A DNA stretch of 64,000 nucleotides, taken from positions 64,604,001 through 64,668,000 of the forward strand of contig NC_086373.1 in the NCBI RefSeq assembly GCF_036588685.1, written 5' to 3'. The position numbers and the translations under genes were made by a program. The notes below the pieces were generated by a model. The model worked only from the letters and a program-made list of their open reading frames with translations. It was not told where the DNA came from and made no database searches. The stretch comes from Mytilus trossulus. Its lineage: Eukaryota. This document shows positions 1-57,600 of this stretch, piece by piece (position 1 is the stretch's first letter; every line of letters begins with the position of its first letter).

Positions 1-127
1 TGTCAGATCTCCTTGATTTACCATCTCTCGATTTTTTTTTTATTGAAAGCTAAGGATGTACAAGTACTATCATATACGCTGGGAGCTATTTGATTTAAAA
101 ATTCGTCCAAGGAAAACTTTGCTTGAG

Positions 128-2129
128 CACTGGTGGTAAGCGGATGTTCGTAACGTAAACTAACGGTTAGCCGCAAATTGGAGACAACTCTAGAGATAAG
201 GTGTTTTTTTTCAATTTTCCTGCAGTAAAAGATTTATTTGAGCCAAACCGCTTGACTCATAAAATCTAATAGTGAGTGCGTTGATATTGAAATAAAATTT
301 GATGCATACAATCATTGGAATACTCGTAAAATAGTCATTCAAAAATTCGAGCATGATGGTCGTAACGACAACTATAGTATTTTGGATGATGGTCGTAACC
401 GATGCAAGATGGTCGTTACTCGTGTATGAAGACGAACTTTTTATTAAAGAATTTTAAAAGTGTTGTGCACATAACCAAGTTTATAAACTCAGATGTAATA
501 TACGGTTTACTACAAATAATAGTATTTGTTACTCTGATAATGGTATGCAGAAACTAAGTTAAAGAAATATAAGCAAACACAGTTCTGATGTATTCCAAAC
601 GCCCATCATTTAAGAATAACAAAGAAAACTAATCAAACTCGCAGTAAGCAAAACAATATGTTAGGTTGAGTATGTAAGTATTTTCTACAATACAGTAAAG
701 CAAACAATGGTTCAATTCACGTGTTTCCCCTCATATTTGTTTTTAAAAATATTTTGTTTTATATACGACTTAGTTTTTATTATCTACAATCATGTCTGCA
801 AACGAAATTATTGAATGTAGAATTTTGAACAGTCATCTTTAATTTTAAATCAACTATTGTAGTTCTCATAAATCATTGGCCTTCAAATATTCGGCTTTTG
901 ATCGTTCCTAATGAAGGTAATTCCAGAAATGCGCTTCAGAGTCATGCAGTTTTTAACGTGTAGTTTTCGTTTTTTGTCGATTGCATGACGATCATATATT
1001 GCGTTTTATCATTGATATTAGTTCTTAGTATTCGTACGACAGGAATACCTAATACATGGTGTCGCAATGAATGTCATGTAAGCCTCGAAAGTAGGATGTT
1101 GTTGATATATATTTGATACTGCTACACGCTATACACGTTGCATTTTAGATTAATAAAACCAAATATTATCCTGGCTCCAAGCTACTCATACATGTATTTG
1201 TTTTAGTTCATAACTTTAATGTGTATAGCAAATAGCAGTGAAGAAAAGATAGCAACAACCTCCTTCGTTTGATAAAAAAAACAACGTTCATTGCGACCCC
1301 ATGGATTTAGTATACCAACCCATGTCAAGAGATTTTCGCTCATAACTCACACGGACCTCCTACGGTACCATCAGTAGTTAACGATTTGATGACCAGCATG
1401 TACGTGTGGCGTAGAACACGGCTATGATATTAATCGTCCGTGTTATTTGCTTTATAAAATGATTGCATAATTTCAAAGGAGGCACTATTCATTTCATTTT
1501 GTTTTGTTTCATTCGACTCGTTCCACTTTTTTCCGTTTCGTTTTGTACGGCTTCTCCTCTTTTCACCCCTTTTAGTTTTTATTACCGTTCTAAACTTTAT
1601 AATTTCCAAAAAATCAAAAATTTGGAATTTTAATATTTCAAGTCTTTGATTAAAATTCTAAAAAACTTAAATTTTAAAATTATTAATTGATACATAGTGT
1701 TACACGGACTGAAATTGCTTTATCTTGTGTTGTATGTAAAAAAAAACACTTTACAAATATAATGTATATCATATAATATATTCATATAATAAAGGACACA
1801 TTTAAAACTCTTGACTTGCCTTACTCGAGCCTATTACATAAAGAGTTACGACCATCATAGATTTTCATTACGACTATCCTCAAGATTTTTGTTGTTTTAG
1901 TTACGAACATCATGCTCGAATTTTTAAATGACTATTTTACAAAAATTCGAATGATTTTATGTATCAAATTTATTTTAATATAATAAACGCACTAAAGATT
2001 AGTATGTATGAAGCAAGCGGTTTGGCTCAAATGAATTTTTTACTACACGAAAATGGGAAAAGAAAAACTGACTTCAAGAATTGTCTTCCATTTTCAGCTC
2101 ACTTTACGACCATGTGCTTACCACCAGTG
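128..2129. mobile_element. Non-autonomous DNA transposon with long (~250-300 bp) diverged terminal inverted repeats
   Basis: cactggtggtaagc at 128 is the reverse complement of gcttaccaccagtg ending at 2129. Inverted similarity continues over ~128-420 vs ~1840-2129 (e.g. atttgagccaaaccgcttg / caagcggtttggctcaaat; aaattcgagcatgatg / catcatgctcgaattt). No TSD or transposase seen. Confidence 0.75.
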
Positions 2130-2130
2130 T

Positions 2131-2380
2131 CAGGCGCCTGTAATTCAGTGGTTGTCGTTTGTTTATTTGTTACATATTTTCGTTCATTTTTGAGGCCGTT
2201 AGTTTTCTCGTTTGAATTGTTTTACATTGTCCTATCGGGGCCTTTTATAGCTAACTATGCGGTATGGGCTTTGCTCATTGTTGAAGGTCGTGCGATGACC
2301 TTTAGTTGTTAATGTTTGTGTCATTTTGGTCTTTTCTGGATAGTTGTCTCATTGGCAATCATACCACATCTTTTTTTTTA
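2131..2380 (-). repeat. Dispersed SINE-like repeat, family A
   Basis: Reverse complement of 18815-19070 (agatgtggtatgattgccaatgagacaact...aaagcccataccgcatagt...ccactgaat). Fragments also near 21085, 30940, 31890, 40850-41140, 46490, 51620 and 51850. Confidence 0.8.
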
Positions 2381-2830
2381 TATTGAGGGAGTAAGGTTTC
2401 TTAGTCCCTTAAATTTTCTTAACTTATCAAAAGGTGTATTACGTAGTAAATAAAATAAAGTCAATCTGTGACTTGAAACTTACGTATTCTCATACGGTTC
2501 TTACTCAAGTCAGTAGATGTTTTGTTATTATGTTGTTTGACTTGAAAAGCCCTTCAATCATTATAAAGGTTTTTTTTATAGAATCAAGCTGGGATAATAA
2601 GAAAACTTGAAAGAACTGTTACTTCGGAATGGCTGAATATTGAATATAATTTAATTTTGGATGTAACGTATCTTCTGATTGGCTGACGCCGTTTTGTTTA
2701 TCAGCCCATAGACATAATTTCGTCATGTGACCGTGACGTCATCAACGTTCTTTCATGATTTACTCCGGTTTAAAATGGAATTAAGAATTTAATGATAAGA
2801 AATTACTGTAATTTTTTTTCTGCCTATTCG

Positions 2831-2911
2831 AAATAACATAAAAATGTGGTACATCTTAAAATAACCCGCTACGAGCGGTATTCAGTGTGCACCACATTTT
2901 TTATGTTATTT
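2831..2911. repeat. Long imperfect palindrome inside a non-autonomous repeat (~2650-2945)
   Basis: aaataacataaaaatgtggtaca...tgcaccacattttttatgttattt, with inner taacccgct/agcggta arms. Confidence 0.65.
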
Positions 2912-3981
2912 CTTCATAGACAGAAACAAATATTACCGAATTTCTTAAATAAAAAGTTACAGCCCTAAATAAAGATCCAATGTATGACGAAAAGGTGTAT
3001 TTATTTTCCTTGAAATATTTTCACATTTTAAGAACTGTGATACCATAAATGTACCTTATATTGACTACATATAGTGTTTTACGTAGTTCTGTTTTTACAA
3101 ATGGGCATATTTTGGCATATGTATGATTGGTTATCTCATTAGCATATGCATCCTTGTTTGCATACCTTTATTTCATTATAATGTTGTCAGAATATGCATT
3201 AATGCTGACATCTTCAAAGGTAAACAATTGTCCGTCGTTGACCTTTGATCCCGTTTTTGATTTGAAATATTTTCCTTATTTGCATACCTTGTTTTATTAT
3301 CAGAATGACATAATATGCAGCAATAATGATGCCATCTTAAAACAAATTTGTCCGTATTCGAGCTTTGATGGAAATAGTCCCGTTCGAATATAGATTGTTT
3401 TTCTAATTCAGCAGGCAACTGTTTGCAGCCTAAAACACACCTGTATGTAACCTGATTTCCTCGCCTCGGTTGATAATATTTTTTTGGTGCAACATTCTGC
3501 TCTATCACCCTCTCAGCTATGTGAAATTTATATAGTGTATTATAAAAACCAAAACTTATTTATTGTAGTATGTATGACAAATAAAGTCATACTCCCAGTT
3601 GTCATATATTTTACTGTAACTATGTATTTGTTCGACTTACGGGTTTATGACAGGTACTTCGGATTTATACAACCCTAAAAATGAGGCTAGCTATGTAATA
3701 TAGATCAGTAAGTTATATAAGAAATTATTTCTAAAGACGATAAAGTCATAACTTGAATTAAACTATTATAGTAAGAAACATACTGGCATGAAAATACGGA
3801 TTTTTTTGTGTTATTAAAATTTGCTATTACCAAATAATAGAAATTATTATAAATTAAGGAATGTATCTCCCTCATGCAAAGCTCTGATTCCTTTCACGGT
3901 TTTGCTATACTTTTTGGACCTTTTGGATTATAGCTCTTTACCTTTTATATAAGCGTTAGATTTCAAATATTTTGGCCACTA

Positions 3982-4025
3982 GCATCACTGAAGAGACATG
4001 TATTGTCAAAATGCGCATATGGTGC
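3982..4025 (+). ncRNA. Type I minimal hammerhead ribozyme, GAAA->AAAA mutant (probably inactive); identical copy at 4812-4855
   Basis: Stem I gcatca/tggtgc; core CUGAAGA; stem II gaca-tgtat-tgtc; AAAA in place of GAAA; palindromic stem III tgcgca; AUA at the cleavage site. Confidence 0.75.
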
Positions 4026-4333
4026 AGGAAAATTAGTACCGTTCATGTTATTATTACCACTGGTTCGATGTCTCTAATAGTGGACTGTTAGTCCCTGAGA
4101 GTATCACCAGCCCAGTAGCCGGTACTTCGGTACTGGCATAAAATACGGATTTTTTTGTATTATTAAAATTTGCTCTAACAAAATGTTAGAGAAATTATTA
4201 TAAATTAAGGAATGTAACTCCCTCATGCAAAGATCTGATTCCTTTCGCGGATTTTGCTATACGTTTTGGACCTTTTGGATTATAGCTCTTCATCTTTTAT
4301 ATAAGCTTTGGATTTAAAATATTTTGGCCATGA

Positions 4334-4377
4334 GCATCATTGAAGAGACAAGTAGTGTCGAAATGCGCATCTGGTGC
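4334..4377 (+). ncRNA. Type I minimal hammerhead ribozyme, C3U variant; identical copy at 5164-5207
   Basis: gcatca-UUGAAGA-gaca agtag tgtc-GAAA-tgcgca-UC-tggtgc; lies 352 nt after the previous hammerhead. Confidence 0.78.
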
Positions 4378-5656
4378 AGGAAAATTGTTATTGAATCTTG
4401 TTAGGAACAGTTTTGCCTTACTTTTTCATATAAAGATCAAATCATTTCAAAACTTTACTGAAGTTGGTTCCATGTGTATCTTGTTTATCATGCACTTAAC
4501 ACTGTTCTGAACGTTTGTTATTTACTATGGTTGTCATCAAATGAGTTCATACAATTATTTCTAAAGACGATAAAGTCATAACTTGAATTAAACTATTATA
4601 GTAAGAAACATACTGGCATGAAAATACGGATTTTTTTGTGTTATTAAAATTTGCTATTACCAAATAATAGAAATTATTATAAATTAAGGAATGTATCTCC
4701 CTCATGCAAAGCTCTGATTCCTTTCACGGTTTTGCTATACTTTTTGGACCTTTTGGATTATAGCTCTTTACCTTTTATATAAGCGTTAGATTTCAAATAT
4801 TTTGGCCACTAGCATCACTGAAGAGACATGTATTGTCAAAATGCGCATATGGTGCAGGAAAATTAGTACCGTTCATGTTATTATTACCACTGGTTCGATG
4901 TCTCTAATAGTGGACTGTTAGTCCCTGAGAGTATCACCAGCCCAGTAGCCGGTACTTCGGTACTGGCATAAAATACGGATTTTTTTGTATTATTAAAATT
5001 TGCTCTAACAAAATGTTAGAGAAATTATTATAAATTAAGGAATGTAACTCCCTCATGCAAAGATCTGATTCCTTTCGCGGATTTTGCTATACGTTTTGGA
5101 CCTTTTGGATTATAGCTCTTCATCTTTTATATAAGCTTTGGATTTAAAATATTTTGGCCATGAGCATCATTGAAGAGACAAGTAGTGTCGAAATGCGCAT
5201 CTGGTGCAGGAAAATTGTTATTGAATCTTGTTAGGAACAGTTTTGCCTTACTTTTTCATATAAAGATCAAATCATTTCAAAACTTTACTGAAGTTGGTTC
5301 CATGTGTATCTTGTTTATCATGCACTTAACACTGTTCTGAACGTTTGTTATTTACTATGGTTGTCATCAAATGAGTTCATACCATTAGTGATAAATATTT
5401 CGTGTACCGTTAAATTGATTTTATATGGATATTACCCTATTAGACCCTCGTTCTAAAAGGATTTTACCACTTACAAAGAAATAATTTTTGAATTGTGTTT
5501 ACAAACAATCATAAACTTAAAGTAATTTTTAAAGACTTTTAGATAAACACCGGGAATAAACCATAAAAATCTATCTGTATATACAGATGTTAAGATAATT
5601 TAAAGAACACACATTATACATAAACGGTACCTATTTAAAAGTTTGGTTGATAAACA

Positions 5657-7322
5657 ATGGCTTACTCTGAATCATTCAGTCAAGCCCAAATTGCATTCTG
5701 CTCATTTTGTAGACTAGAAAAAATTACTGAATGGAAATATGTAGATTGTGATAAGCAACTTTGTTATGAGTGCAAAAGATTTCATCTGTGGGAATTTGAT
5801 TGGACTGTACATAACGTAGTGTGTACTAGGCCTTCATTAGCGGACGGATTAAGTGATCTGCCAGAATTTGCTAAAACCTGTTGCACTAAGCACACAGAAT
5901 TTGGTTATACAAACTTTTGTTTGGATTGTCAGCAACTCGTTTGCCCAGAATATATAGCGTTAGGCTCAGTACATTTGAAACATGAAAACATAACAATAGT
6001 GAAGTGCCGTGAGAAAAGGTTGGGAGCTCTTGAACTTTTGAAGACGAACATTGAAAGTAGAATCCTTCCAAATATTGAGGATAAAAGCAAATCGTTAACT
6101 GGATTAGATATCGCTTTTGAAGAAAGGCATGAAAACGAAAAGAAAAAAATAACGAGGTCAAGCAGAAAAGTTGAAAGATCAAATAACGCAATGTACGAAT
6201 ATGCAACTCTTGTATTTAGAAAAGTTTTGGAAAAAGAACAAAGATATCATAGAAAAAGAAAAATCGCAGCTTATAAAAATACAGAAAGAATTAAATAACG
6301 AAATCAAAAATATAATGTCCATCAGAATGAAAAACTATATCGAAGAAATAGTACACGAATCTGCAGAAATTTCGAGTCGTATCCAACTAAACAGTAATCC
6401 ACTAGTCAGCTTTCCACAAGACATTATTATGTTTCACCCTAAAAACAATACTACAACTGACATCAGTACGATCATGGGAGGTTTTAAGAACCACAATATG
6501 GCAAGTGAGGTGAAAGGTCGGATTCGTTCATACCAGTTAATACAACAGATCAAACAAAATTCTTCACTGGCGGTTGCCAGAGATGAAAAAATAAATATCA
6601 CGGACGATGATTGTGTTTCTATTGAACTGAAGCCCCATGAAAAGACCAAAATTACAAGAGTAAAACATGGTATTTTAGATATGGCTACATTGGATTTATC
6701 AAACCTGCTCTTTATATCAAGGGAAGACCATCGTGTTATGACAAAAAATGAAAGTGGTGGAACCAACTCATTTTACACACTTCGAAACAGCAAAAATATA
6801 GCATTAGCTCTTTGTTTCTGTGGAGACGGAAGGGTATTAGTGCTTTACGCTAAGGAAGTTCCCTCATCAAAACGTAGGAGTGAGTGCCTATTAAAACTTA
6901 AAATCGATATGTTGTCATGCAAAGGAACATTAATGAAAATAATAAAATGCAATTATCCATCGCAGTGGTATACATTCTCAACGGGCAGATTTAGAATGAG
7001 ACAGAATATTAATGGACATATATGTATCTTGTGTGAAGAGCATGGCGAAGTAGCTGATATGAGCCTGGACGGAACGGTAAACTGGAAATACAAAAACTAC
7101 CTTGCTCGTGATATAGAGACCACACTGATTGGCAATATTATTGTTTTGGAAAGATATTCAAATGAGTTGACAATTCTACACTCTGGTGGAGAACTATTGC
7201 AAGCAATGAACTTAAACTTGCAAAAGCCTGAAACAAACAGCATATGTTTTAAAAACTGCAAAGAATTTGTGATCATTAGCAGAGAAGAAATCTTTATTTT
7301 AGAGCTATCTTTTCCAATATAA
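5657..7322 (+). pseudogene. TRIM-like B-box/B-box/coiled-coil/beta-propeller (NHL-like) gene, copy 1, frameshifted
   Basis: ORFs 5657-6298 and 6171-7322 join if one A is removed at ~6151 (ata[a]cga ggt caa gca gaa aag ttg), giving colinearity with the paralog at 14640. B-box patterns CxxC...CxxCxxxH and CxxH...CxxCxxxxC are present, but two Cys are Tyr (KYVDC, CPEYI). No RING domain. Confidence 0.8.
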
Positions 7323-8755
7323 CAGTGCTTTTGTTTATTTACAACTGAGTGTACAGTGATACCATTTTCATAATTGTTTAATGCTTAATCAGTTTCATTT
7401 TTACATATACAAAAAAGTTCAAATGATGTGTATAGTCGTACAAATTTACATTATGGTTTCTTGGGATCTGAATGGTGTTACAATAGGTATAACAGAGGGA
7501 CGAAAGATACCAAAGGGACAGTCAAACTATAACATTTTCGGTTAACTAGAAAGAAATGGAATTCTTGCATAAGTATCTTAAGAAATAGAAATTAAAAATA
7601 TATTTTAAATCATATCTAAACAAACACCACATCCAGTTGGAAAATTAACAATATTCAAAACACGAATTATTTCAAGGTTAGATTATATGTTTTAACATTA
7701 AAAGCACCATGTTATAATACTACTAGAGAACTTATTAGTTCAATCTATTCATTTTTTTTGGAAATCAACCCGCACAAGATGAAAAGATAAATATTATTTA
7801 TGGATCATAAATTAAAATAATCATGTTTGATGCAATTTTATTCTAATTTTTAACCATAGTTGTTGTATAATTCTACTCAATTTCATATTTTTTTGTGTCT
7901 ACCACAATTACACAGAATAACTATTAACGATTAAGCGAAAACAAATAAAATTAAAAACACACACGCACACATAGATACTTAGAAACACATGCTTTAGAGA
8001 ATTAAATGTGAGCAGTTATGTTCCATGCTCGCCATCAGACGAAAACAAAAGGTATACAAATAGATGTAATCAATGAAAAATAAATTGTTCATCGTGCAAT
8101 CTAACTTAGTGTGAATATTTCCCCTGTTTGACACTTGTATAAAAGGCATTTTAGAATTTCACTACAAGAATTTTATATGTGGATTTATTTTATTTTACAA
8201 TCTATATATCATTGATTTAAGATTTCTTTTCATATGACGTTTAGATAAAAAAAAAATCCCTCTGTATGCTAAACTGTTGAATCAATTATGATCCTGACTG
8301 ATAGCAATGGCTTCCTATGAATCATTAAACGAAGCCCGAATTCTGTTCTGTTCACTTTGAACACAGAGGGGGGGGGGGTAATGGAAATGTGTTGTTTGTG
8401 ATAAGAAACTTTGAAATGAGTGTTAAAGGTTTCATCTATGGAAACTTGATTGAATGCACTGAACCAAAGCAAAGTGTATACAAAGGCTTCTGAAGAAGGA
8501 CTAAGTGATAAAACCTAAATAAGCTAAAATTAATGAACACGAAGAATTTTACCATACAAACTTTTGTTTGGATTATAATAATTATAAAAGTAATAAATAA
8601 TTTGACATCTTGTGGAAGTTTAATCACTGTATTGAGATTGCTTTTAAAGTGAAAATAAGTAACATTTAAACAATGAAACTGGACAAAGAAAACATAGAAG
8701 TTACGTTTAAAGTGAATGTGAATAGTTATCAAAGATACCAGGCTTATAATTTGAT

Positions 8756-8803
8756 AAACCAGACGCGTGTTTCGTCTACAAAAGACTCATAATTTAGTGA
8801 CGC
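8756..8803 (-). repeat. Degenerate hammerhead-bearing repeat (core interrupted)
   Basis: Matches 25205-25248 but CUGAUGA is disrupted (reverse complement reads cactaaattatgagtc). A second degenerate + copy lies at 9031-9062 (ttgatga gtc ttttgtg gac gaaa cacgca tc). Confidence 0.65.
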
Positions 8804-10305
8804 TCTTATCAAAATAGTAAGAAAGCCAAACATATATTGTAAGATTTTCTATACATTGTATTTTGGCGATCGAATTCAAAAACAAACACATTTTTGTAAG
8901 TTATAAAGTTCACCTAAATATTGTCGTAAAACTAAATGACGAAAACTACCGAAATTTGTTGTGCTGATATTTTAGGGAGTACCTGTTTTATACTATAACT
9001 AAATGACAATAAATTTGTATTGATCTTGTATTGATGAGTCTTTTGTGGACGAAACACGCATCCATCGTACAAAATCGTTAGCCTGTAATTTTGTTGTACT
9101 GTCCTATAATATACGTGTACAATATTGATTGAATTTTCATTTATATTTCATAAGCTGTCTATTTTGGAATTGGCATCTTCATAAACTATCATGTCTATTT
9201 CAGCTGTATAGCGTTTCATAATTTATTTTAAATAAAACTATATCACTCACATTTCTGTCGTCAATTTCTTCCTATCGGAAAGCCTTCTTTCAAATTCAAA
9301 CCGTTTCGTTTAGACAATCTGTAAATTCAAAAATTGAATGTTGTGGGTTTTTCCTATTGATGCGAAATGAAGGCCGTTACATTTAAGCAATACTGAATTA
9401 CGTAAGCATCGCTGCGCTTCATGCTAAATGTAATGATTACTTTTATTTTATAATTTACAGACACATCTTTCAATTCTATATTGAAGTATTGTGGTAATTT
9501 TAAGAATCATTTCTTTTAAATCGACATCTTCATTATGTTGCTTTCAACTATATGTCCTATATGACGTATAATAATCGATTTCACGTGACATGTCACTTCG
9601 ATCTGTCAAATTTTTGTGATCACATAATTTTTTTATGGCCTTCAATTTTCCAATGTTTTTTTTTATATAGGAACTAAGGTTGTTTTTATACATTTGATTT
9701 ATGAGATGAAAGCATACTTTATCTTTGTCATTTCAATCTCCAGACTATTCAACAAAATATATACTGTGTTTCTTAAATGTTTCAAAAGAAAGAATCAAGT
9801 GGAACATGACAAAGATAAAGGCCGGGTGAACAATGATATAAATTTACAATTTTGATACGGTGATCAGCTAAAAACGGGGAAGTTCGGGCAGTTGAAGTTC
9901 CAACCAATTGTCTAGAATTAACTTATCTAGTGTCGTTATATATACCTTTTTAGCAGTGTTTTCTGTTCCCATTCTTATAGCTATGGGCACAAATAATTAA
10001 AATAAATAAACACAGTCGCTAGGCTCTTTAAAGTGAAAAAAGACTGCTAAATTTTGGTACGAATGCATATTTGAAATTTTAAACAAAATAAGCATGTCAA
10101 ACACTAACAATTCTTTGGTGTATGTTGTCAATTCATATTTGTAAGCTGTTCCAATATCATTTCTTTTTTAAAATAGTTTATGACGACTATTTGTTCCATC
10201 TGCAACAAATCCGTCTCATGGATAAAAAAAACCAATGCTCAAAAGAGATTGTGTCTTTGACATAGTACTAACGAGAGATGTCACCCTAAATGGCGATTTT
10301 TACCA

Positions 10306-11180
10306 TTTTTGTCGAGCCTTCGACTTTAGTCGAAAAAGCGAGACTAAGCGATCCTACATTCCATCGGCGTCGTCGTCGTCGGCGGCGTCCACAAATATTC
10401 ACTTTGTGGTTAAAGTTTTTGAAATTTAAATAACTTTCTTAAACTATACTGGATTTCTATCAAACTTGGACAGAAGCTTGTTTATGATCATAAGATAGTA
10501 TGCAGAAGTAAATTTTGTAAAAATAAAATTCCTTTTTTTCCGTATTTTACTTATAAATGGACTTAGTTTTTTCTGCGGGGAAACATAATATTCACTCTGT
10601 GGTTAAAGTTTTTGAAATTTTAATAACTTTCTTAAACTATACTGGATTTCTATCAAACTTGGACAGAAGCTTGTTTATGATCATAAGATAGTATGCAGAA
10701 GTAAATTTTGTAAAAATAAAATTCCTTTTTTTCCGTATTTTACTTATAAATGGACTTAGTTTTTTCTGCGGGGAAACATAATATTCACTCTGTGGTTAAA
10801 GTTTTTGAAATTTTAATAACTTTCTTAAACTATACTGGATTTCTACCAAACTTGAACAGAAGCTTTTTTATGATCATAAGATAGTATCTATCTAGAAGTA
10901 AATTTTGTAAAAAAATAAATCCATTTTTTCCGTATTTTACTTTTAAATGGACTTAGATTTTCTTCCAGTTTACATTACACAGTCTGCAGTTAAAGTTTTC
11001 AAAACATTTATAAGATTCATAACCTATCCTAAATTTTACCAAACTTGGACAGAAGCTTTATACAATCATAAGATAGTATCAAGAGGAATATTTTTATTGA
11101 TTTTTTTTCACATTTTTGTTGAGACTGCGATTTACAGCAAAAGTAGGCGAGACACTGGGTTCCGCGGAACCCTTACAATT
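10306..11180 (+). mobile_element. Non-autonomous Helentron-like (HINE/DINE-type) element with internal 193-bp tandem repeats
   Basis: T-run insertion site, 5' inverted motif ttcgact/agtcgaa, (gtc)n microsatellite, 193-bp units (10406, 10599, 10792), subterminal gcgagac at both ends, and a 3' hairpin gggttccgcggaaccc. Confidence 0.8.
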
Positions 11181-11334
11181 ATTTTAAAACAGAAGTAAAG
11201 ATGATAAAGAACCTTATAAATGTAAAACAACAAATCAGCAAGACGAGACTGAAAACGCACATGTATGCAAGACCTCTACTGCTATTTCATGTGTCTTTTA
11301 TATTTTACCATGAAAATGGAACTTTCTTCGTTTC

Positions 11335-12518
11335 TAATAAAATTGAGAAAGGTAGTGGGGAATGTGCCCAAGCGACAGCACCCCGACCATAGTGCAGACA
11401 ACAGCCGAAGGCCACCAATGGGTCTTCAATGTAGCGAGAAACTCCCGTACCCGTATGCGTCCTTCAGCTGGCCCCTTAAAAGATATGTATACTAGTACAG
11501 TGATAATGGACGTCATACTAAACTCCGAATTATACACAGGAAACTTAAATTAAAAATTTGTAAGGGTTCCGCGGAACCCAGTGTCTCGCCTACTTTTGCT
11601 GTAAATTGCAGGCTCAACAAAAATGAGGTAAAAAATCAATAAAAATATTCCTCTTGATACTATCTTATGATTGTAAGAAGCTTCTGTCGAAGTTTGGTAA
11701 AAATTAAAAATAGTTGATGAATCTAATAAATGTTTTGAAAACTTTAACTGCAGACTGTATGTTATGTTAACTGGAAGAAAAATTCAGTCCATTTAAAAGT
11801 AAAATACGGAAAAAATGGATTTATTTTTTTACAAAATTTACTTCTGGATACTATCTTATGATCATAAATAAGCTTCTGTCCAAGTTTGGTACAAACCCAG
11901 GATAGTTTAAGAAAGTTATTAAAATTTAAAAAACTTTAACCACAGAGTGAATGTAATGTTTCCCCGCAGAAAAACTAAGTCCATTTAAAAGTAAAATACG
12001 GAAAAAATGGATTTATTTTTTTTACAAAATTTACTTCTGGATACTATCTTATAATCATAAATAAGCTTCTGTCCAAGTTTGGTACAAACCCAGGATAGTT
12101 TAAGAAAGTTATTAAAATTTTAAAAACTTTAACCACAGAGTGAATGTAATGTTTCCCCGCAGAAAAGTCCATTTATAAGTAAAATACAGAAAACCTGGAA
12201 TTTTATTTTTACAAAATTTACTTCTGGATACTATCTTATGATCATAAACAAGCTTCTGTCCAAGTTTGGTAGAAATCCAGTATAGTTTAAGAAAGTTATT
12301 AAAATTTCAAAAACTTTAACCACAGAGTGAATATTTGTGGACGCCGCCGACGACGACGACGACGGAATGTAGGATCACTTAGTCTCGCTTTTTCGACTAA
12401 AGTCGAAGGCTCGACAAAAATCATACAAGACTAGCAAAGGCCAGAGGCTTCTGACTTGGGACATGCGCAAAATTGCTGCGGGGTTAAACATGTTTATGAG
12501 ATCTCAACACTCCCCCTT
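11335..12518 (+). repeat. Dispersed repeat family B, split by the Helentron-like insertion at 11556-12420
   Basis: 11335-11555 joined to 12421-12518 is colinear with the uninterrupted reverse copy at ~47700-47997. Other copies near 21780, 45390 and 60810. Confidence 0.8.
11556..12420 (-). mobile_element. Second copy of the same Helentron-like element, inverted
   Basis: Reverse complement of 10306-11180 (tgtaagggttccgcggaacccagtgtctcgcc ... agtcgaaggctcgacaaaaa); inserted in an A/T run with no TSD. Confidence 0.82.
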
Positions 12519-14639: not shown

Positions 14640-16302
14640 ATGGCTTCCTTTGAATCATTACAAAAAGCTCAAATTCCACTCTGCTCATTCTGTAAACTAG
14701 AAAAGAAAACAGAATGGAAATGCATAGATTGCGATAAGCATCTCTGTTATGAGTGCAAAATGTTTCATCTGTGGAATATTAATTGGAGTGAACATAAAAT
14801 ATTATGGACCAGGTCTTCAGTTACAGAGGGATTAAGTGATAGTGCAGAACTTGTTGACATTTGTTGCACAAAACATGAAAGCTATTACAATACAAATTAT
14901 TGTTTGCATTGTAAGCAACTTGTTTGTCCAGAATGTATAGCTTTGGGACCGCTACATTTCCAACATGACAACGTAACAATATATAAGCGTCATGAAGAGA
15001 GTTTGAAAGAACTTGAAAATTTAAGAAAAACAATTGAAAAAGATATTTTTCCAATTATTCAGAAAAAAAAAGGAATCTTTAATATCATTTGACATTACCT
15101 GTGAAGAAAAATATGAAACCGAAAGAAAAAAAATTGAAGAGCAGGCAGAAAAGTTGAAAGACCTTATTTCGCTATGTACAAGTAACGTAGTAGAGTCTTT
15201 AGGAAATGTTTTGATCAGGAACAGGAATTTAATAAGAGAAGAAATATCACAGCTTGAACAAATACAGAAAGAGTTGAAAATTGAAATTAAAAATATAAAT
15301 GTAACAAGAATGAATGATAACATTAGGGACATATTACGTGAGGTTGTAAACATTTCAAGTCGCATTCAAAAGAACAGTGATATATCAGTTTACTTTCCTC
15401 GAGAATTGGCTACGTTTTATCCTTTAAACGCCACATCATCCGACATCAATGCTGTTATAGGATGTTTAGAGTACCACAATATAGCAACTGAAGTGCATAT
15501 TGGACATCCTATTCATTCTTATAAATTAGCTCAACAGATTAGTGATAATAGCTCACTAGCGGTTGCTAAAGATGGAACCATATATGTTTCCGATCATTGT
15601 GTTTCCATTGAATTGAAACCCAATGAGAAGCCTAAAAGAATTACACATCAATCAGATATTGTAGATTTGGCTACGTCGGAACAATCAGAACTGCTTTTTC
15701 TTACAAAGGGAGACAATTGTGATCAGATAAGAAGTGGCAGTGCAGACGTTATGGCAATTTACTCACTTCCAAACAGCAAAAATGTAACTCTAGCACTTTG
15801 TGTTTGTGAAAAGGGCAAAGTCTTGGTTCTTTACGTCAAAGAGGTCGCATCATCCACATTCAAAAGCGAATTTTCAGTTAAACTTAGAATTGATATAATC
15901 TCAAAAGATGGAATATTGATAAAAATAATAAAATGTCAGTTTCCTTACAAATGGAATACATCCTCAATAAACAGATTTAGAATGAAAGAGAATATTAATG
16001 GACATATTTGTATCTTGTGCGTAGAACAAGACGAAGTTTTCGATTTGAATAAAGACGGAAAGGTCAATTGGAAATACTCGATGTGTCAGGTAAACGATAT
16101 AGAGACAACATCGGTCGGCAATATTATCGTATCAGGAAGATACTGTAAAACACTGAGAGTTCTAAGCTGTGATGGAAAACTACTAACAACAATACAACTT
16201 AACCTTAGAAGACCCGAAACATACAATATATGTTTGAAAAACTGTAGAGAACTTGTAATCGTTAGCAGAAAGGAAATTTTTATTCTATCTTTTCCAATAT
16301 GA
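14640..16302 (+). CDS. TRIM-like B-box/B-box/coiled-coil/beta-propeller gene, copy 2; one frameshift in an A9 run
   Basis: ORFs 14640-15092 and 15034-16302 join if A9 (15063-15071) is A8 (cag aaa aaa aag gaa tct = QKKKES), matching copy 1 IEDKSKS. Zn ligands are intact (CSFC, CIDC, CYEC..H, CTKH, CLHC, CPEC). Shares its C-terminus (LSFPI) and the upstream motif aatctatctgtatat with copy 1. Confidence 0.8.
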
Positions 16303-17323: not shown

Positions 17324-18814
17324 TTATGTCTACATTGATCATGGGTGGTTTGTACCAGGAGAAATTGAAATCTTAATACAAAAATTGAACGATAAATAAT
17401 TATCCTATTCATCGGATGAAAGATGAGTCAATTATTTCCGTCATATGCTTTCATGTCGTTAGACCTTACTACTTATAAAAACAATACCTTTTCTTTTTGT
17501 TCATACTAATGATAATTCTTTTTGTAGTGACATTAATATAAACAGTTACATCCGCTGCTAATTGATACTGTGACAGTTTCTATGTATCTATCATTTCGAC
17601 CACACACGGGTTCATTATCTGCACATAGTTTCATAAGGCTTTTAATAGGATTATAATCATTCTGTAACTGTAGTTCGATCGTTTGAGTTGTATAATAAAT
17701 ATTAGTATTTTACTTGGAGTCTACTTGATATATATGTAGCAAAAGATGCCACACTTTTAAATACGCAAAGTGTGTGCATATGCAAAAGTAGTCGACAATG
17801 TGGGAAAGGAAAATAGTTTCGGAACAAAATTGAATAATTCGGCTTCCCAATTGTTAATTTTAATTTTTGGACCAGGAGTTCCAAATGGTGAAGTTGAAAT
17901 CAACACTTTGTAAATTTTACGGACGCCATCATGGGTTGGTTGACCGTTGTGTTATATCCGTTGCATATATGGTATCGGATATGTTCCTTGTGTCGTAACT
18001 ACAAAACAGTTCCCTTTAAACAAATGTGACCAATCTAGTTAGACTATTTACCGACTTGGTAATAACATGAGCAATACGACGGGTGCCGCGTGATGAGCAG
18101 GATCAGCTTCCAACCCGGGGCACCTGCGATCGCCCCCAGGTTTTGGTGGGGTTCGTGTTGCTGTTGTACCCCTATTTGTGACATGCTTACCTATTGTGTC
18201 TGTTTGTTTTGTTCACAGATGCGACTGTCATACAAGTGAGAGGTTGAGCGCTTTAAAACCAGCTTCAATCAACTTCATGTTCTACATAAGTCTTCCTAGC
18301 CAGGAATATGATAGTTGTTATCCATTCGTTTGATGTGCTTGAGTTTTTGATTTTGTCATTTGATTAGGAACTTTTCCTCAGAGTTCAGTATTTTTGTGAT
18401 TTCACTTTATACAGAGTTAGCTCAAAGAAGGAACGTTATGAAACATTCACAAATTGAACAGCGCCAACGGAACAATTGTTCAGTGTAGTCAATGGTATTT
18501 GAGATACAATATTTTTTTTTTGACGCTTATAAATACAGAAACGAATTAATGCTGGTAACGTCTGATGTTTAGCCAAATGCTGGACACAACCAAGACTTCT
18601 TTCTGAAGTATTTCGAGAAGCATTCGTCACATATTTTAATGAAAAATTATAAATTGATACTGGCAGAACCTTTCGGAATATTATGTTCTAAATGCTCTTC
18701 AATTGGGATTTTTTATTTGGCCTTTTATTTATATATCGTTTTAATAATTTAGCATCACGGTTGAGTCTTTTGAGGAGGGAACATACGTAAAAATGGCGTA
18801 AATAACTATAATAT

Positions 18815-24755: not shown

Positions 24756-27312
24756 AGGGAAAACACCAGAAGAAGCAACAAATGATGTCATTTCCGTTCA
24801 GTTACCGAAGATAGTAAAACTGATGTCGGATGGTTTATTGAAAGTTGACAATATTGATGTATTTTGTGAGAAAGGAGTATTTGATGTTGATCAATCAAAA
24901 AGAATCCTTGTGGCTGGAAAAGATGCAGGTCTACAAATAAATTTTCATGGTGATGAACTCAATCCATTAGAAGGAGCTGAGGTATACATAATGATATAGG
25001 AACTATACAAGTCCTTGTTTTGGCTGTTAGCCTTAACGGGACTCTTTAATGCGATAAATTGAATATGACAATAATTTCAAAGTACTTTAGTTTCTCGTTA
25101 GATATAATAGGTAAGAGGGGACGACACGCTTTTGGAATGTGGGATATAGGGGTAAACATTTTGGGATAAACTCATCATAGATACCAGGACTAAATTTAGT
25201 ATATACGCCAGACACGCGTTTCGTCTACAAAAGACTCATCAGTGACGCTCGAATCCAAAAAAGTTAAAAAGGCCAAATAATGTGGGTTAAAAGTTGGGAT
25301 CTAGAGAAAAGATAGAAAAAGTTCATTACAAACGAAGTGTGATTTGGGAAATGAGCAGGAATCCGTGAAAAACTTTTATGAATCATAAAATATGTCATCA
25401 CGATCAAAAACATTTGAAAAAATCCCTTACGTTTGAAGTCAAGTAGAGAACGTAAAACAACGATCACATTCATTGCTATGAAATTTAAAAACACTCGCAT
25501 TTATTTTTTAAATCACGCTGAAAGATGCTTGAAGGTCTTCAGCAATAAACTGAATACTAAGCATCTTAAAAGTGACCAACTTTGCCATTATCGTTGGTTA
25601 TGTGTTACCAGAAACAAAGGTACCTGTCTCCTATATCCAACGCAACTAAATCTTATAGCCTATGTAATGTTAAAGCATAAGAATTTTGTATATATGGTGA
25701 TTTTGTTTTTGTTTTTTAATAACCACACAGAGGGCAACAAGAGAAAAGAAAAGCACTAAGTGGTATCGTATGCATATAATAAACCGGAATGCCGACATTT
25801 TTTGTGCAACTGCCCAAGTTTTTTCAAACTATTCTTTTTAGATGGGTGCCGAATTGGGAGCTTTAGCAATAAGCCATCTAGAGGAAATTTCAGAACAAGG
25901 AATAAGAGCAATGGTAGAAGCTGGAAGTATTGGTGTTGTTTTACCTACAACTGCATACATTCTCAGAATAAAACCACCACCCGTGAGGTTGATGATAGAT
26001 TCGGGTATGGCAGTTGCTCTTGGATCCGACTATAATCCTAATGCTCACTGCTCATCAATGGTAAGTACAACAAAAATAATTATCACTATATTAGGTTTCT
26101 ACTACAGGCTTATAATGTGAAGAACAAAAAATGAAAATGGAAATATTTTTCTTTGACTCCGACTTTAAATATATGTTTTTGGTAGGACTAGAATTATAAT
26201 TTACCTAAACTTATACCTCAATGAAAATTTTTAACTGGGATTAAGGCTAATCGTATTTTAAATTACTTAAATAGCATCTATATATCATTTGGTTTTGGCA
26301 GCCTATGGTTATGCATTTAGCATGTGTGTTGATGCACATGTCGATGCCAGAAGCCTTAATAGCTGCAACACTCAATGCTGCTGCGGCCTTGGGATTAGCT
26401 GAAACTCATGGTTCAATAGAAGTTGGTAAATATGGAGACTTGGTTGTCATTGGTGCTAATAGGTAAACTTACTTTACAGTTGAATATATATTAATAAGTA
26501 AAATACGAGGTACAGAAGTTTTGTCCATATAAGCTTTTGTATCTATTAGAATTATACACTATACAGTCAATTGAAACTGTTCCAACATTACCAATCAAAT
26601 TCAAACATATGTCATTTACTAATTTACAGACTATTTACTGCATTTATACTAGACTGAATGTTCATCAAAATAGTCAGACGGGGAGTACCCCAAAAAAAAG
26701 CACTTTGTCTTGTTTAAACTATTTTGTTGTTGTTGAATTAATGTTTTGATTTGTGAAAAACGAGAAGTTACTATTATCAAATGAAATAAAATTAACCGTA
26801 CCAATTTTCTTGCACCAGATGCGCATTTCGACAATACATGTCTCTTCAGTGATGCTCGTGGCCAAAATATTTGAAATCCAAAAGTATCTTTTTTTAAATT
26901 TAGGAATATACCTCTCTCATACAAAGCTTTATTCACTAGCCCGATTTTGGTCATTCTTATTAGGACTTTTTACTAATAAGCTCTTTGTTTATTTGAATAA
27001 GCTTGGAATTTTTAAAAATTTGGCCTTTGGCATCACTGAATGGTCAGTTCTTTTCAAAATGTGTATCTTGTGCAAAAACAGTGTTATTAAGAACTAAGAA
27101 TAGAAATGAAACAGCTCCATAACATTATTTATTTGAACATAAAACTGTACTCTTTATAGACATCTTTTATTCAAATATATTTTTTAATCATTTTCATTTA
27201 TTTGAGAATTTGTACTTTCAGATGGGAGCATTTGATATACCAGCTTGGATCACATGATAAACTTATTGACTGTGTAATAAGACATGGTGATATAGTGTAC
27301 CAGAGAGTGTGA
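24756..27312 (+). CDS. AMDHD1: Imidazolonepropionase (HutI-like amidohydrolase), last four coding exons
   Basis: GT-AG exons 24756-24981, 25842-26060, 26302-26462 and 27222-27312 splice in frame: GKTPEEA...DNIDVFCEKGVFD...INFHGDEL...AISHLEE...LPTTAYILR...VALGSDYNPNAHCSSMPMVMHLAC...GSIEVGKYGDLVVI...RWEHLIYQLG...RV*. This matches the metazoan AMDHD1 C-terminal half. Confidence 0.95.
25205..25248 (-). ncRNA. Type I minimal hammerhead ribozyme, intact core
   Basis: Reverse complement: gcgtca-CUGAUGA-gtct tttgt agac-GAAA-cgcgtg-UC-tggcgt (GUC cleavage triplet; stem I gcgtca/tggcgt). Confidence 0.85.
26812..26855 (-). ncRNA. Type I minimal hammerhead ribozyme, intact core
   Basis: Reverse complement: gcatca-CUGAAGA-gaca tgtat tgtc-GAAA-tgcgca-UC-tggtgc; same family as the 3.7-5.4 kb array. 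A decayed inverted copy lies at ~27030-27073. Confidence 0.87.
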
Positions 27313-30423: not shown

Positions 30424-47074
<16,651 letters not shown>

Positions 47075-54600: not shown

Positions 54601-57600
54601 TATATAAGGTTGAGAAATGAGGATCTAATCATTTATTATTCGACCGCAAACAATTTTTGGGAATGTATAATGGAATGATGTCGTCATTGTTGTTGTCTGA
54701 AGACACATTGGTTTCCGGACAATAACTGTAGTTTAAATTAATGGATATCTATGAAATTTTGTTATAAGGTTCAATTCCCCTAAAGGAAGGTTTGGATAAA
54801 TTTGGAGATGATGGTCCTTGGAACACAACAGATTGTCTTGAGGTGCTGCACACATGTGCCAAATATCAAAAGATTTTATCAAAGGGCAAACAGATAATGC
54901 TCCTGACACAAAATTGTAAACAAAAGTCATATTTTTACTTTGAGGTCAAAGGTCAAAGTACAGCAAAAAATTGTATTATAGGTATCTGTGGAATTGACTT
55001 ATGATCTAGATGCCAATTCAGTGAGAATTTTCTTGCATCTTCCAACTAAGAACTTTCATGGTGAAAATTTGTACAAAAAAGGCCTACAGGAAAGGAATAG
55101 TGTACATTTTATGCTTGCTATGGCAACCAAAGGAACAAAGTGGCGACAAGACTACAACTTTTTTTCTTTATTTTTTTCATCAAAAACTCACTAAAACATG
55201 ATAAATACAATAAAGATGCAAAAGTGTATTGGTATTTTGCATCTTAATCCATGTAATACCATTTTGGTTTGCCAAAGCATAATTTTCTCAATATTACAAT
55301 TTTCCTTATTTTTGGCATTTTTTTACTGAATTGTTTTAAAAAGAGTAAAAAAGATACCAAAAATTGTACTTTCATATTTTTATGCCCCACCTACGATAGT
55401 GCCTCCGTTCGTCTGTCCGTTCGTCGTCTGTCCCGCTTCAGGTTAAAGTTTTTGGTCAAGGTAGTTTTTGATGAAGATGAAGTCCAATCAACTTGAAACT
55501 TAGTAACATGTGCCCTATGATATGTTTTTTCTAATTTAAATGCCAAATTAGAGTTTTGACCCCAATTTTACGGTTCACTGAACATAGAAAATGATAGTGT
55601 AAATTTCAGGTTAAAGTTTTTGGTCAAGGTAGTTTTTGATAAAGTAGAAGTTTAATCAACTTGAAACTAAGTGTACATGTTCCCTTTGATAACATCATTA
55701 TAATTTTAATGCCGAATTAGAGAATTTATTCCAATTTCACGGTCCACTAGACATAGAAAATGATAGTGCGAGTGGAGCATCCGTGTACTGTGGACACATT
55801 CTTGTTTTAAACCAACATAGTTCTAGACTTCCATATCAGTAGTAAGTCATAAATGTTGTTTTCCTCTGGTGATGGATAATTGAAAACGGTTAGAAACTGG
55901 CTTTTCTTAAATTTTCTCTATTTTTCTTATTTTAGCATTTTTTTTACCTTATTTTTTTTTTTAAATCAAAAAGATACCAAAAATTTCATTTTCATCATTT
56001 TTCACACCAAAATAGTACTAGACTTGCATATAGGTAGTTTATTCATAAGTGTTGTTTTCCTCTGGTGATGGATAATTGAAAACGGTCAGAAAACGGCTTT
56101 TCTCAATTTTTCTCAATTTTCCCTATTTTAGCATTTTTTTACCTTATTTCTTGAAAAAAATCAAAAAGACACCAAACATTTTATTCTCATTAGTTTTTAC
56201 ACCAACATAGTACAAGACTTACATATAGGTAGTTAATTCATAAAGGCTGGTTTTCTCCAATGATTGATCATTTAAAACGGTTAGAAACTGGCAGTTCTCA
56301 ATTTTCCTTATTTTAGCATTTTTTGACCTTATTTTTTGAAAAAAATCAAAAAAGATACCAAAAATTTTATTTCAATTATTTTTACACCAACATAGTTCTA
56401 AACTTCCATATAGATAGTTTAGTCATAAGGGCTGTTTTTCTCCAATGATGGATCATTGAAAACGGTTAGAAACTGGCATTTCTCAATTTTCTCAATTTTC
56501 CTTATTTTAGCTTTTTTTTACCTTATTTTTTGAAAAAAATCAAAAAGATACCAAAAAATTTTATTTTCATTATTTTTTACACAAACATAGTACTAGACTT
56601 CCATATAGGTAATTTTGTCATAAGTATTGTTTTTCTCCGATGACGGATAATTGAAAACAGTAAGAAACTGGCTTTTTCCCCATACATTTCAATGGAAAAT
56701 AGCGGTTTGAGCCCTTATATTGAATTTCATTTAAAAAAATGTCAAATTCACAAAAAATTGAAAAAAAAATTATATGTTCCCAGTCAGTATGTTATACTGA
56801 AAGGGTAAAATATAAGTTAGACCAATTTTTTTTTTTTTAGTTGAACAGTCCTGCCTGGTGCTCTCTGACATTGCCTCTTAAAACATATACATAAAAAAAA
56901 TAGAGATGAGGAATCTTCCAAAGGGCAAACAAAATACCCTAATTTGGACGAAACTCAAAACCAGGATGAAACTAGTGAATTCCAAGTGGTAACAATCACC
57001 CAATTTGTTATGTTTATGTGTTGTACAAAAAAAGATGCAGCTTATTATGAGTCTCTGCCAAAGCACACTCTCAGAAACAACAAACTGTTAATATATAAAT
57101 TATGTATGACTTTATTTCTTTTCTTTTTTCGTAGCATGCAATTCCATTACCAGAATCTTTGAAAGTTGATGCAGAAACTTTAAAGAATATTATGGTACGT
57201 AAGATACATGTATATGTTTGAAATTCTGCGAAGACATCATATTTTTGGTTGCCTGCTGTTATATGATTATTTTAGATAGCCTTATTCATACCATTTATTT
57301 AAGATTCATCATTATCATTGTTCATAATCATATTAAAGGATGAAAATTTAACTGCATTATTTTGATGAAATTTTCAAATTGGTGTGTTTAATTTTTGCAC
57401 TTTATATTAAATAACGAGCACAAAATAAACTAATATTTATGATGAAGTAAGAAAGGGAGATAAATATTGTATATATTTCATACATTGGATTATTTGATAT
57501 AGAAGTCAGACATATAATTGTGAAACACACTTTAAGTTTATATACTTAAAAATAGTAAAGAATGAACTATATATTCAACTCTAAAGTAAGATGTAGGAAA

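What the first reader, a model, noticed from the sequence alone, without database searches (positions are those of the whole stretch)
3723..5382. Tandem hammerhead-ribozyme (retrozyme-like) array just upstream of a TRIM-like gene
Seen: four type I hammerhead motifs (3982, 4334, 4812, 5164) spaced 352/478/352 nt, each with a 6-nt palindromic stem III (tgcgca), plus a Pol III B-box-like ggttcgatgtc at 4062 and 4892. Known: tandem ~350-nt repeats with minimal type I hammerheads are the architecture of metazoan non-LTR retrozymes, which self-cleave (often as dimers) to give circular RNAs and are thought to be mobilised by Penelope-like elements. Inference: this locus is a decaying retrozyme multimer, since copies alternate GAAA->AAAA and C3U core changes. 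It ends 450 nt before the ATG of TRIM-like copy 1, on the same strand.
Basis: partly seen in the sequence, partly recalled or inferred. Interest (0 to 1): 0.72.

Follow-up and report, generated by a model that had tools for sequence, protein, structure and literature searches.

The report
Broken mussel retrozyme copy, duplicated once
The four ribozyme motifs are two mutated hammerheads repeated by an exact 830-base duplication; they likely belong to an already described mussel repeat family whose intact copies make small RNA circles, and these copies are predicted to cut poorly or not at all, so the locus is ordinary.

Summary
The motifs are real, but this is not a four-unit array. One 607-nt insertion (3781-4387; 1.7 units of 352 nt; two type I hammerheads) was copied with its host flanks as an exact 830/830-nt duplication. 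That duplication explains both the 352/478/352 spacing and the alternating mutations. A model built without these copies scores them 52-57 bits. The family is very abundant: 8,174 contigs of one DNA run lie on it, with G12 and C17 intact in over 93% of depth. The neighbouring proteins point to a Mytilus host. Mytilus retrozymes of 350-390 bp that make circular RNA were published in 2020 (PMC7229834); I could not compare sequences. Hammerhead A carries G12A (about 10^6-fold slower in PMC2553840) and B carries C3U against G8, so no 352-nt circle is expected from this locus. The B-box-like motif is inconclusive. Nothing links the element to the TRIM-like gene, which is itself frameshifted. Whether the duplication is real or an assembly artefact is unresolved. 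Verdict: a decayed copy of a known family, low interest.

The parts
3723..4552 (.). 830-nt block, first copy: left host flank, retrozyme insertion, right host flank
   Evidence: Identical to 4553-5382 at 830 of 830 positions
4553..5382 (.). 830-nt block, second copy (recent tandem duplication or assembly artefact)
   Evidence: a contig of run X1 ends exactly at 4552 (table 8)
3723..3780 (.). Left non-family flank, about 58 nt (repeated at 4553-4610)
   Evidence: No match to family copy L014; depth about 100-150 against 10^5-10^6 inside the element
3781..4387 (+). Retrozyme insertion, 607 nt = 1.72 units of 352 nt; 5'-truncated inside the UUCG hairpin; 3' end 16 nt past the second cleavage site
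   Evidence: 91-93% identical to the intact copy L014; boundaries from loose ends at 4387 and 4611
3982..4026 (+). Type I hammerhead A; G12A at 4008, C17A at 4019; cleavage site would be 4019/4020; predicted inactive
   Evidence: 52.5 bits with model R1; family majority has G and C at the equivalent positions 4838 and 4849; PMC2553840
4334..4378 (+). Type I hammerhead B; C3U at 4340 with G8 kept; cleavage site would be 4371/4372; predicted impaired
   Evidence: 56.6 bits with R1; C3-G8 pair described in PMC3088659
4020..4371 (+). The one complete monomer between cleavage sites, 352 nt
   Evidence: 26 substitutions in 349 aligned bases (7.4%) against the 350-nt monomer of L014
4060..4138 (+). 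GC-rich structured domain: long hairpin holding the B-box-like GGTTCGATGTC (4062-4072), then an 8-bp stem with a UUCG loop
   Evidence: z -3.9 here and -4.2 in L014; hairpin covaries in the family-2 copy L019; B-box test
4388..4552 (.). Right non-family flank, about 165 nt (repeated at 5218-5382)
   Evidence: X1 contig of 167 nt matches 4386-4552 with 0 differences; X2 contig matches 4405-4530 with 1 difference
4611..5217 (+). Duplicate of the retrozyme insertion
4812..4856 (+). Duplicate of hammerhead A (G12A, C17A)
5164..5208 (+). Duplicate of hammerhead B (C3U)
5657..7322 (+). Neighbour only: single-exon B-box (TRIM-like) gene, frameshifted near codon 168-173
   Evidence: Two frames match the intact M. 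edulis protein P0003 at 82% and 88%; weak zf-B_box hit below Pfam's cut-off

Best explanation
This is a 1.7-unit insertion of an abundant hammerhead-bearing repeat, likely the described mussel non-LTR retrozyme family, whose two hammerheads carry core mutations that are predicted to stop efficient self-cleavage, and which is present twice as an exact 830-nt block with its flanks. Likely history: (1) An active copy elsewhere was transcribed, cut at successive hammerheads and ligated into a circle of about 350 nt (shown for the Mytilus family in PMC7229834; inferred for this sequence). (2) A reverse transcriptase from an autonomous non-LTR element, possibly Penelope-like, copied the circle for more than one turn and inserted a 5'-truncated 1.7-mer (inferred). 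(3) The two units then decayed independently (divergence shown; neutrality inferred), giving G12A in one hammerhead and C3U in the other (shown). (4) Much later the insertion and about 220 nt of flank were duplicated in tandem (identity shown; biological reality not settled). It most likely does nothing now, and it lies near the TRIM-like gene by chance.
For: Exact 830-nt duplication including non-family flanks. Hammerhead fold: 96.5% of 228 cells pair, and 6 of 12 pairs change on both sides across 19 motifs; 0 of 500 shuffles reach the covariation score. The window copies score 52-57 bits with a model that excludes them. High copy number: 8,174 contigs of run X1 and 4,464 of X2 lie on the stretch, and 4 further hammerheads or relics with E below 0.001 lie elsewhere in the window. 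The family core is intact elsewhere: G12 in 93-99% and C17 in 94-100% of depth in three runs, and in the copy at 26811-26855. Units A and B differ from intact L014 by 5.0% and 6.3% and from each other by 9.2%, as expected if two once-identical units decayed separately. At that divergence the chance that both hammerheads take a core hit is about 0.22, so no selection is needed. The 3' ends run 16 nt (here) and about 33 nt (copy at 26.8 kb) past the cleavage site, which fits copying from a circle or multimer rather than from a cleaved linear monomer (inference). RNA run X21 holds one 381-nt family contig that returns to its own start, a closed loop of about 351 nt with an intact core. Named relatives of the neighbouring proteins are from Mytilus. 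PMC7229834 describes about 5,000 type I hammerheads in two families within 350-390-bp repeats in M. galloprovincialis; two related families appear in my data too.
Against: No target-site duplication was found; the best flank alignment is matched by 52% of random pairs. Covariation is between families, not among copies of this family; the search pattern fixed stem III and part of stem I, and I dropped 11 of 26 loci as non-hammerhead before aligning. I found no measured rate for C3U with G8, and natural core variants can keep some activity (PMC3088659). The X21 loop could come from a tandem transcript or from DNA, and it is about 93% identical to this locus, so it is the family and not this copy. 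No listed contig spans the duplication junction.
Confidence: 0.88

Rival explanations
1. The second 830-nt block is an assembly artefact (false duplication), and the genome holds a single two-hammerhead insertion. This changes the copy count, not the identity of the element.
For: 100% identity over 830 nt next to units that differ by 9%. No junction-spanning contig is among the pieces listed (13,018 pieces and 73 joints were not shown).
Against: In run X1 a 167-nt contig matches 4386-4552 without a difference and stops exactly at the breakpoint, with about 53 of extra depth starting 30 nt earlier. This is the branch expected if reads continue in two ways from 4552. X1 may be the window's own sample, and a heterozygous boundary could give the same break.
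Confidence: 0.3
2. The family is a SINE-like, Pol III-driven element like Schistosoma Sm-alpha: an A-box-like stretch at the cleavage site and a B box 42 nt downstream drive its transcription.
For: A match within one mismatch of GGTTCGANNCC sits at monomer position 43 in both the window and L014; 21 of 1,500 shuffles give such a match (a post hoc test). One contig of RNA run X19 reads as an exact match, and G accounts for only 46% of X1 depth at 4894. A partial A-box-like TGGTGCAG starts 42 nt upstream. Hammerhead SINEs of Schistosoma appear to be Pol III transcripts (PMC6765202).
Against: No exact GWTCRANNC or full A-box match in the window element or in L014. The family majority reads GGGTCGATGCC (L014, X21, loose-end consensus of 61 and 32 contigs, 91% of X2 depth), and that G pairs in the predicted hairpin. 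The monomer has 6 runs of four or more T, one of 7 T about 130 nt after the cleavage site, which would stop Pol III before the next hammerhead (established knowledge). The A-box-like letters are also the 3' strand of stem I. Four such B-box-like matches occur in the whole window.
Confidence: 0.1
3. The element has been co-opted as a regulator of the downstream TRIM-like gene, as a weakened ribozyme in the 5' region of its transcript or as a dosage-changing upstream duplication.
For: Same strand, 439 nt upstream of the ATG. Both cores are weakened, as would be expected if cleavage of a pre-mRNA were selected against.
Against: The gene is frameshifted against intact relatives. Two core hits are expected by chance with probability about 0.22. 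With 5-8 independent family relics in 64 kb, one lies within 500 nt upstream of one of three TRIM-like starts with probability 0.11-0.17. No transcript linking the two was seen; the transcription start of the gene is unknown.
Confidence: 0.04
4. The duplication created a new, longer retrozyme unit: A is dead, B keeps residual activity, and cleavage at 4371/4372 and 5201/5202 releases an 830-nt RNA with about 220 nt of host DNA that can circularise.
For: The geometry follows directly from the sequence. Stems I and II of B still form in the predicted fold.
Against: C3U breaks the C3-G8 pair without the compensating A8 (PMC3088659). No transcript of this locus is known. No dispersed copies of the 830-nt unit were seen: flank depth is that of a low-copy sequence. 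The duplication may be an artefact.
Confidence: 0.03

Closest known systems
Mytilus galloprovincialis non-LTR retrozymes (Cervera and de la Pena 2020, PMC7229834)
   Same: Type I hammerhead in a low-GC repeat of about 350 bp; two related families; thousands of copies; Mytilus-type host; the paper's construct name DRtz_Mg353 suggests a 353-nt monomer against 352 nt here.
   Different: This copy has mutated cores (G12A, C3U), is only 1.7 units long and is duplicated with its flanks. Sequence identity to the published clones could not be checked.
Other metazoan non-LTR retrozymes (coral Acropora, axolotl and newt satellite 2)
   Same: Short tandem units cut by type I hammerheads; palindromic stem III.
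   Different: Amphibian hammerheads need dimers; the mussel type is reported to cleave as a monomer. Unit sequences are species-specific (PMC7229834).
Schistosoma Sm-alpha hammerhead SINEs (Rfam RF00163 Hammerhead_1 is the matching model)
   Same: Type I hammerhead with a short self-complementary stem III in a repeat; the sister family-2 motif in L009 scores 33 bits on RF00163.
   Different: Sm-alpha appears to be Pol III-driven (PMC6765202); here the B box is imperfect and followed by T runs. RF00163 does not detect this family, intact or not.
Penelope-like element hammerheads
   Same: Tandem, 5'-truncated insertions with short 3' tails and occasional adjacent inverted copies are described for PLEs (PMC8557442).
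   Different: No reverse transcriptase frame here (no ORF of 120 aa or more in 3723-5382); stem II is complete.

Membership tests
Metazoan non-LTR retrozyme | Type I hammerhead motif in each unit | tested here: met
   the cores at this locus are mutated
Metazoan non-LTR retrozyme | Short head-to-tail repeat, monomer 150-450 bp, dimer or longer | tested here: met
   352-nt monomer, 1.72 units with two hammerheads; head-to-tail joints 4960 to 4611 in all four runs
Metazoan non-LTR retrozyme | Low GC (below 45-50%) and non-coding | tested here: met
   GC 0.32-0.33 over 2001-6000; no ORF of 120 aa or more in 3723-5382
Metazoan non-LTR retrozyme | Dispersed, high copy number in the genome | tested here: met
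   8,174 contigs laid from X1 and 4,464 from X2 (not a copy count); 4 more motifs with E below 0.001 elsewhere in the window
Metazoan non-LTR retrozyme | No LTR, primer-binding site or polypurine tract | not tested
   No LTR-like layout is evident; PBS and PPT were not searched
Metazoan non-LTR retrozyme | Target-site duplication (optional in the paper: 'when present') | tested here: not met
   Longest shared flank word 6 nt; alignment no better than 52% of random pairs
Metazoan non-LTR retrozyme | Expressed as circular RNA of unit length | tested here: inconclusive
   One closed-loop contig of about 351 nt in RNA run X21, family level only; contigs cannot tell a circle from a tandem transcript or DNA
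Metazoan non-LTR retrozyme | Self-cleavage | not testable with these tools
   Predicted lost at this locus from G12A (PMC2553840) and C3U
M. galloprovincialis retrozyme family of PMC7229834 | Sequence similarity to the published clones MN642551-MN642576 | not testable with these tools
Host genus inferred
Pol III SINE (Sm-alpha-like) | Internal A and B boxes | tested here: inconclusive
   B box one mismatch from consensus in the window and L014, exact in one X19 contig; A box partial
Pol III SINE (Sm-alpha-like) | No Pol III terminator inside the transcribed unit | tested here: not met
   6 runs of four or more T in the window monomer, 5 in L014, the longest 7 and 6
Rfam RF00163 Hammerhead_1 | Score at or above the gathering threshold of 34 bits | tested here: not met
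   No hit at E up to 10; intact family copies are missed too, so this does not bear on the fold

The most novel reading that the evidence does not exclude
Mussel retrozymes carry a tRNA-type internal promoter relic right after the cleavage site (A-box-like at +1, B box at +43, a conserved structured domain with a UUCG hairpin, then a T6-7 run at about +130). They would then be hammerhead SINEs with a Pol III head that makes a short RNA of about 140 nt, apart from the 350-nt circle. This would bear on which polymerase transcribes metazoan retrozymes, a point the passages I read do not settle. A second, less likely reading (about 0.03) is that this duplication has produced an 830-nt retrozyme unit that captured host DNA.
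Probability: 0.1. Interest if true: 0.45.

Novelty: already known. Interest (0 to 1): 0.14.

Why it matters
As it stands it matters little: it is one decayed copy among thousands of a family whose cleavage and circular RNAs were shown in mussels in 2020. It is a clean example of how a retrozyme copy dies: a 1.7-unit insertion, independent decay of the two units, then a local duplication that mimics a tetramer. If the B-box reading held for the family, it would point to the polymerase that drives these circles.

Tried and rejected
Rfam scans gave no hammerhead in 1-12000 or 3940-4420; the control made this uninformative. Tandem Repeats Finder did not list the locus among its 12 rows (longest period 500). 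Minimum-energy folding alone does not single out the motifs (z near 0). No whole genome is held, so no genome-wide count or orthologous-site comparison was possible. Pattern scans found nothing in viral contigs or prokaryotic genomes, so I have no full-length family-2 copy in which to test the B box. Of 26 metagenome loci, 11 were dropped as chance matches without paired stems (L003, L004, L006, L008, L012, L013, L016, L021, L024, L025, L026); model R1 left out a further four imperfect motifs (second L014 copy, L007, L017, L019) and the window's A and B, and includes the window's 26.8-kb copy, which therefore matches by construction. A target-site duplication was sought and not found. The bacterial promoter scan is irrelevant to an animal locus. 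RNA runs X19 and X21 have no cover on the unique flanks; they are other organisms or mixed samples, so this says nothing about expression of this locus. The uneven depth along the unit is confounded by divergence and was not used. Rescue of G12A and C3U by dimer formation was rejected by inference. Searches for a measured C3U rate found none. PMC10886601 (Helenus/Ajax; passages) is unrelated. The search on Mytilus TRIM genes was seen as a listing only.

Full report
Observation. The four motifs are at the stated places with the stated spacing, palindromes and core changes. Each reads: stem I 5' strand GCATCA, core CTGAAGA, a 4-bp stem II with a 5-nt loop, GAAA, stem III ATGCGCAT, the cleavage base, and stem I 3' strand TGGTGC. 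Hammerhead A (3982) has A at G12 (4008) and A at C17 (4019). Hammerhead B (4334) has T at C3 (4340) with G8 unchanged. The locus is one insertion of 607 nt (1.72 units, two hammerheads), present twice. The 478-nt gap and the alternation of mutations follow from that.

Is it a hammerhead? Rfam reports nothing in the window. In a control on 8 related loci RF00163 hit 4 and missed the intact copies of this same family in L014 and L015, so the miss is a limit of the model. A pattern scan of metagenome contigs gave 26 loci. I kept 15 whose stems pair: 3 of this family, 6 of a sister family and 6 unrelated outside the ribozyme; 11 were dropped. Across 19 motifs, 96.5% of 228 cells pair, 6 of 12 pairs change on both sides, and neither the shuffles (0 of 500 for the covariation score) nor the slid controls come close. 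The pattern fixed stem III and part of stem I, the rows were hand-picked, and the covariation is between families. A model built from 13 intact motifs without A and B scores A at 52.5 and B at 56.6 bits, against 11 bits or less for background. Of its 17 window hits, 8 have E below 0.001: the four motifs, an intact copy at 26811-26855, and sister-family motifs at 25204, 8755 and 9028.

The family. Locus L014 holds an intact 350-nt monomer, 7.4% different from the window's. Laying four public runs on 4350-4960 placed 8,174 contigs from DNA run X1 and 4,464 from X2 on the element, with summed depth about four orders of magnitude above the flank (not a copy count). The family majority has G12 (93%, 98% and 99% of depth in X1, X2 and X19) and C17 (94%, 98% and 100%), so the changes here are private damage. 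Head-to-tail joints from 4960 back to 4611 occur in all four runs. RNA run X21 gave a single 381-nt contig that runs off the end of the unit and back to its own start with about 30 nt of overlap, a closed loop of about 351 nt with an intact core. That fits a circular RNA but also a tandem transcript or DNA, and it is about 93% identical to this copy.

Host and literature. A search with the second TRIM-like protein returned 4 relatives, the two named ones from Mytilus coruscus and M. edulis; the M. edulis protein matches the gene beside the element at 82-88%. PMC7229834 (parts 1-4 of 6 of the text read; supplement unreadable) reports about 5,000 type I hammerheads in two families within 350-390-bp repeats of M. 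galloprovincialis. It also reports cleavage of a cloned repeat at about 0.1 per minute, abundant circular RNA, ligation by RtcB, and Penelope-like elements as candidate mobilisers. Size, two-family structure, abundance and host all agree with this element. I could not compare sequences, and the unseen supplement (figures S4, S5) holds them. I saw passages only of the preprint 10.1101/721605, PMC7761336, PMC8557442, PMC2553840, PMC3088659, PMC7151607, PMC6765202 and PMC10886601. Searches for Mytilus with retrozyme or hammerhead ribozyme each returned the same 5 papers.

How it most likely works. Active family copies are transcribed, cut at successive hammerheads and closed into circles (shown in the paper, inferred for this sequence family). 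A borrowed reverse transcriptase copies a circle for more than one turn and inserts it (inferred). The anatomy here fits: a 5'-truncated start, 1.7 units, and a 3' end 16 nt beyond the cleavage site (about 33 nt in the 26.8-kb copy), which a cleaved linear monomer could not template. Units A and B are 5.0% and 6.3% from L014 and 9.2% from each other, as for two once-identical units decaying separately. G12 is the general base, and G12A slowed a full-length hammerhead about 10^6-fold (PMC2553840). C3 pairs with G8, and the natural U3 variants described have A8 (PMC3088659). That U3 with G8 is strongly impaired is my recollection; two searches found no measurement. A 352-nt monomer needs both cuts, so this locus is predicted to make none. 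Two core hits are expected by chance with probability about 0.22. No target-site duplication was found; the paper treats it as optional.

The duplication. In X1 a 167-nt contig matches 4386-4552 with no difference and ends exactly at the breakpoint, with extra depth of about 53 beginning 30 nt before it. That is what an assembly graph does where reads continue in two ways, and it favours a real breakpoint. No junction-spanning contig was among those listed, X1 may be the window's own sample, and a heterozygous boundary would look similar, so an artefact keeps about 30%. The same contig also starts exactly at the element's 3' end, which hints at an empty-site allele; this was not shown.

The B box. 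The window reads GGTTCGATGTC and L014 reads GGGTCGATGCC; each is one mismatch from the recalled consensus GGTTCGANNCC, at different positions, and one X19 contig is exact. Such a match arises in 21 of 1,500 shuffles of either monomer (post hoc). Against a promoter role: the majority G pairs in a stable hairpin (z -4.2), the A box is partial and overlaps stem I, and runs of 6-7 T lie about 130 nt after the cleavage site. This stays open, at about 10%.

The TRIM-like gene. The ATG is at 5657. The gene is frameshifted near codon 168-173, the second copy near codon 143, and a third copy is a 5' fragment. B-box hits are below or just above Pfam's cut-off. Family relics are common enough here that one near a TRIM-like start has probability 0.11-0.17. 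I found no evidence of a functional link.

Verdict. Novelty: already known. Interest 0.14.

Noticed in passing
window 26785-26882 (-) and 26889-27086 (+): A short copy with a fully intact hammerhead (96-97% to L014) sits head-to-head, a few bases apart, with a much older inverted copy (about 70%) whose hammerhead is decayed. It resembles the inverted 5'-truncated neighbours described for Penelope-like insertions, or is a nested insertion.
   Followed up: partly
window 8715-8832 (-), 9028-9093 (+), 18661-18812 (+), 25162-25283 (-), 44872-44972 (+): Relics of the sister retrozyme family; 25204-25248 keeps an intact core with one change in the stem III loop.
   Followed up: partly
window 4119-4138; L014 925-944; L019 (family 2): An 8-bp hairpin with a UUCG loop is kept in both families with compensatory changes, preceded by a conserved stretch of about 25 nt. 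Only one family-2 copy was available. The insertion's 5' end falls inside this hairpin.
   Followed up: partly
window 5657-7322, 14640-16302, 8307-8573: Three B-box (TRIM-like) paralogues: two full-length but each frameshifted once (the second in an A run, so possibly a sequencing error), and one 5' fragment.
   Followed up: partly
L014 and L017, downstream of the last hammerhead: Two different contigs share the same several hundred bases after the retrozyme's 3' end but differ upstream, as if orthologous sites or a second repeat carried the hammerhead.
   Followed up: no
L001, L005, L010, L018, L022, L023: Type I hammerheads with the same short palindromic stem III in contigs of higher GC that are unrelated to the mussel-type repeat; L010, L018 and L023 have internal repeats of about 100-145 nt near the motif.
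   Followed up: no
window 10394-11079, 11652-12332, 55797-56676: Tandem repeats of 193-195 nt; the first two lie in opposite orientation.
   Followed up: no
window 32480-33238 (+) and 38157-39227 (-): Two long frames without Pfam hits; by eye the first looks like the C-terminal end of a LINE ORF2 and the second like an ORF1-type coiled-coil protein (recalled resemblance).
   Followed up: no
window 2796-2947: A 32-nt imperfect inverted repeat with a hairpin-like interior, probably a miniature DNA transposon.
   Followed up: no
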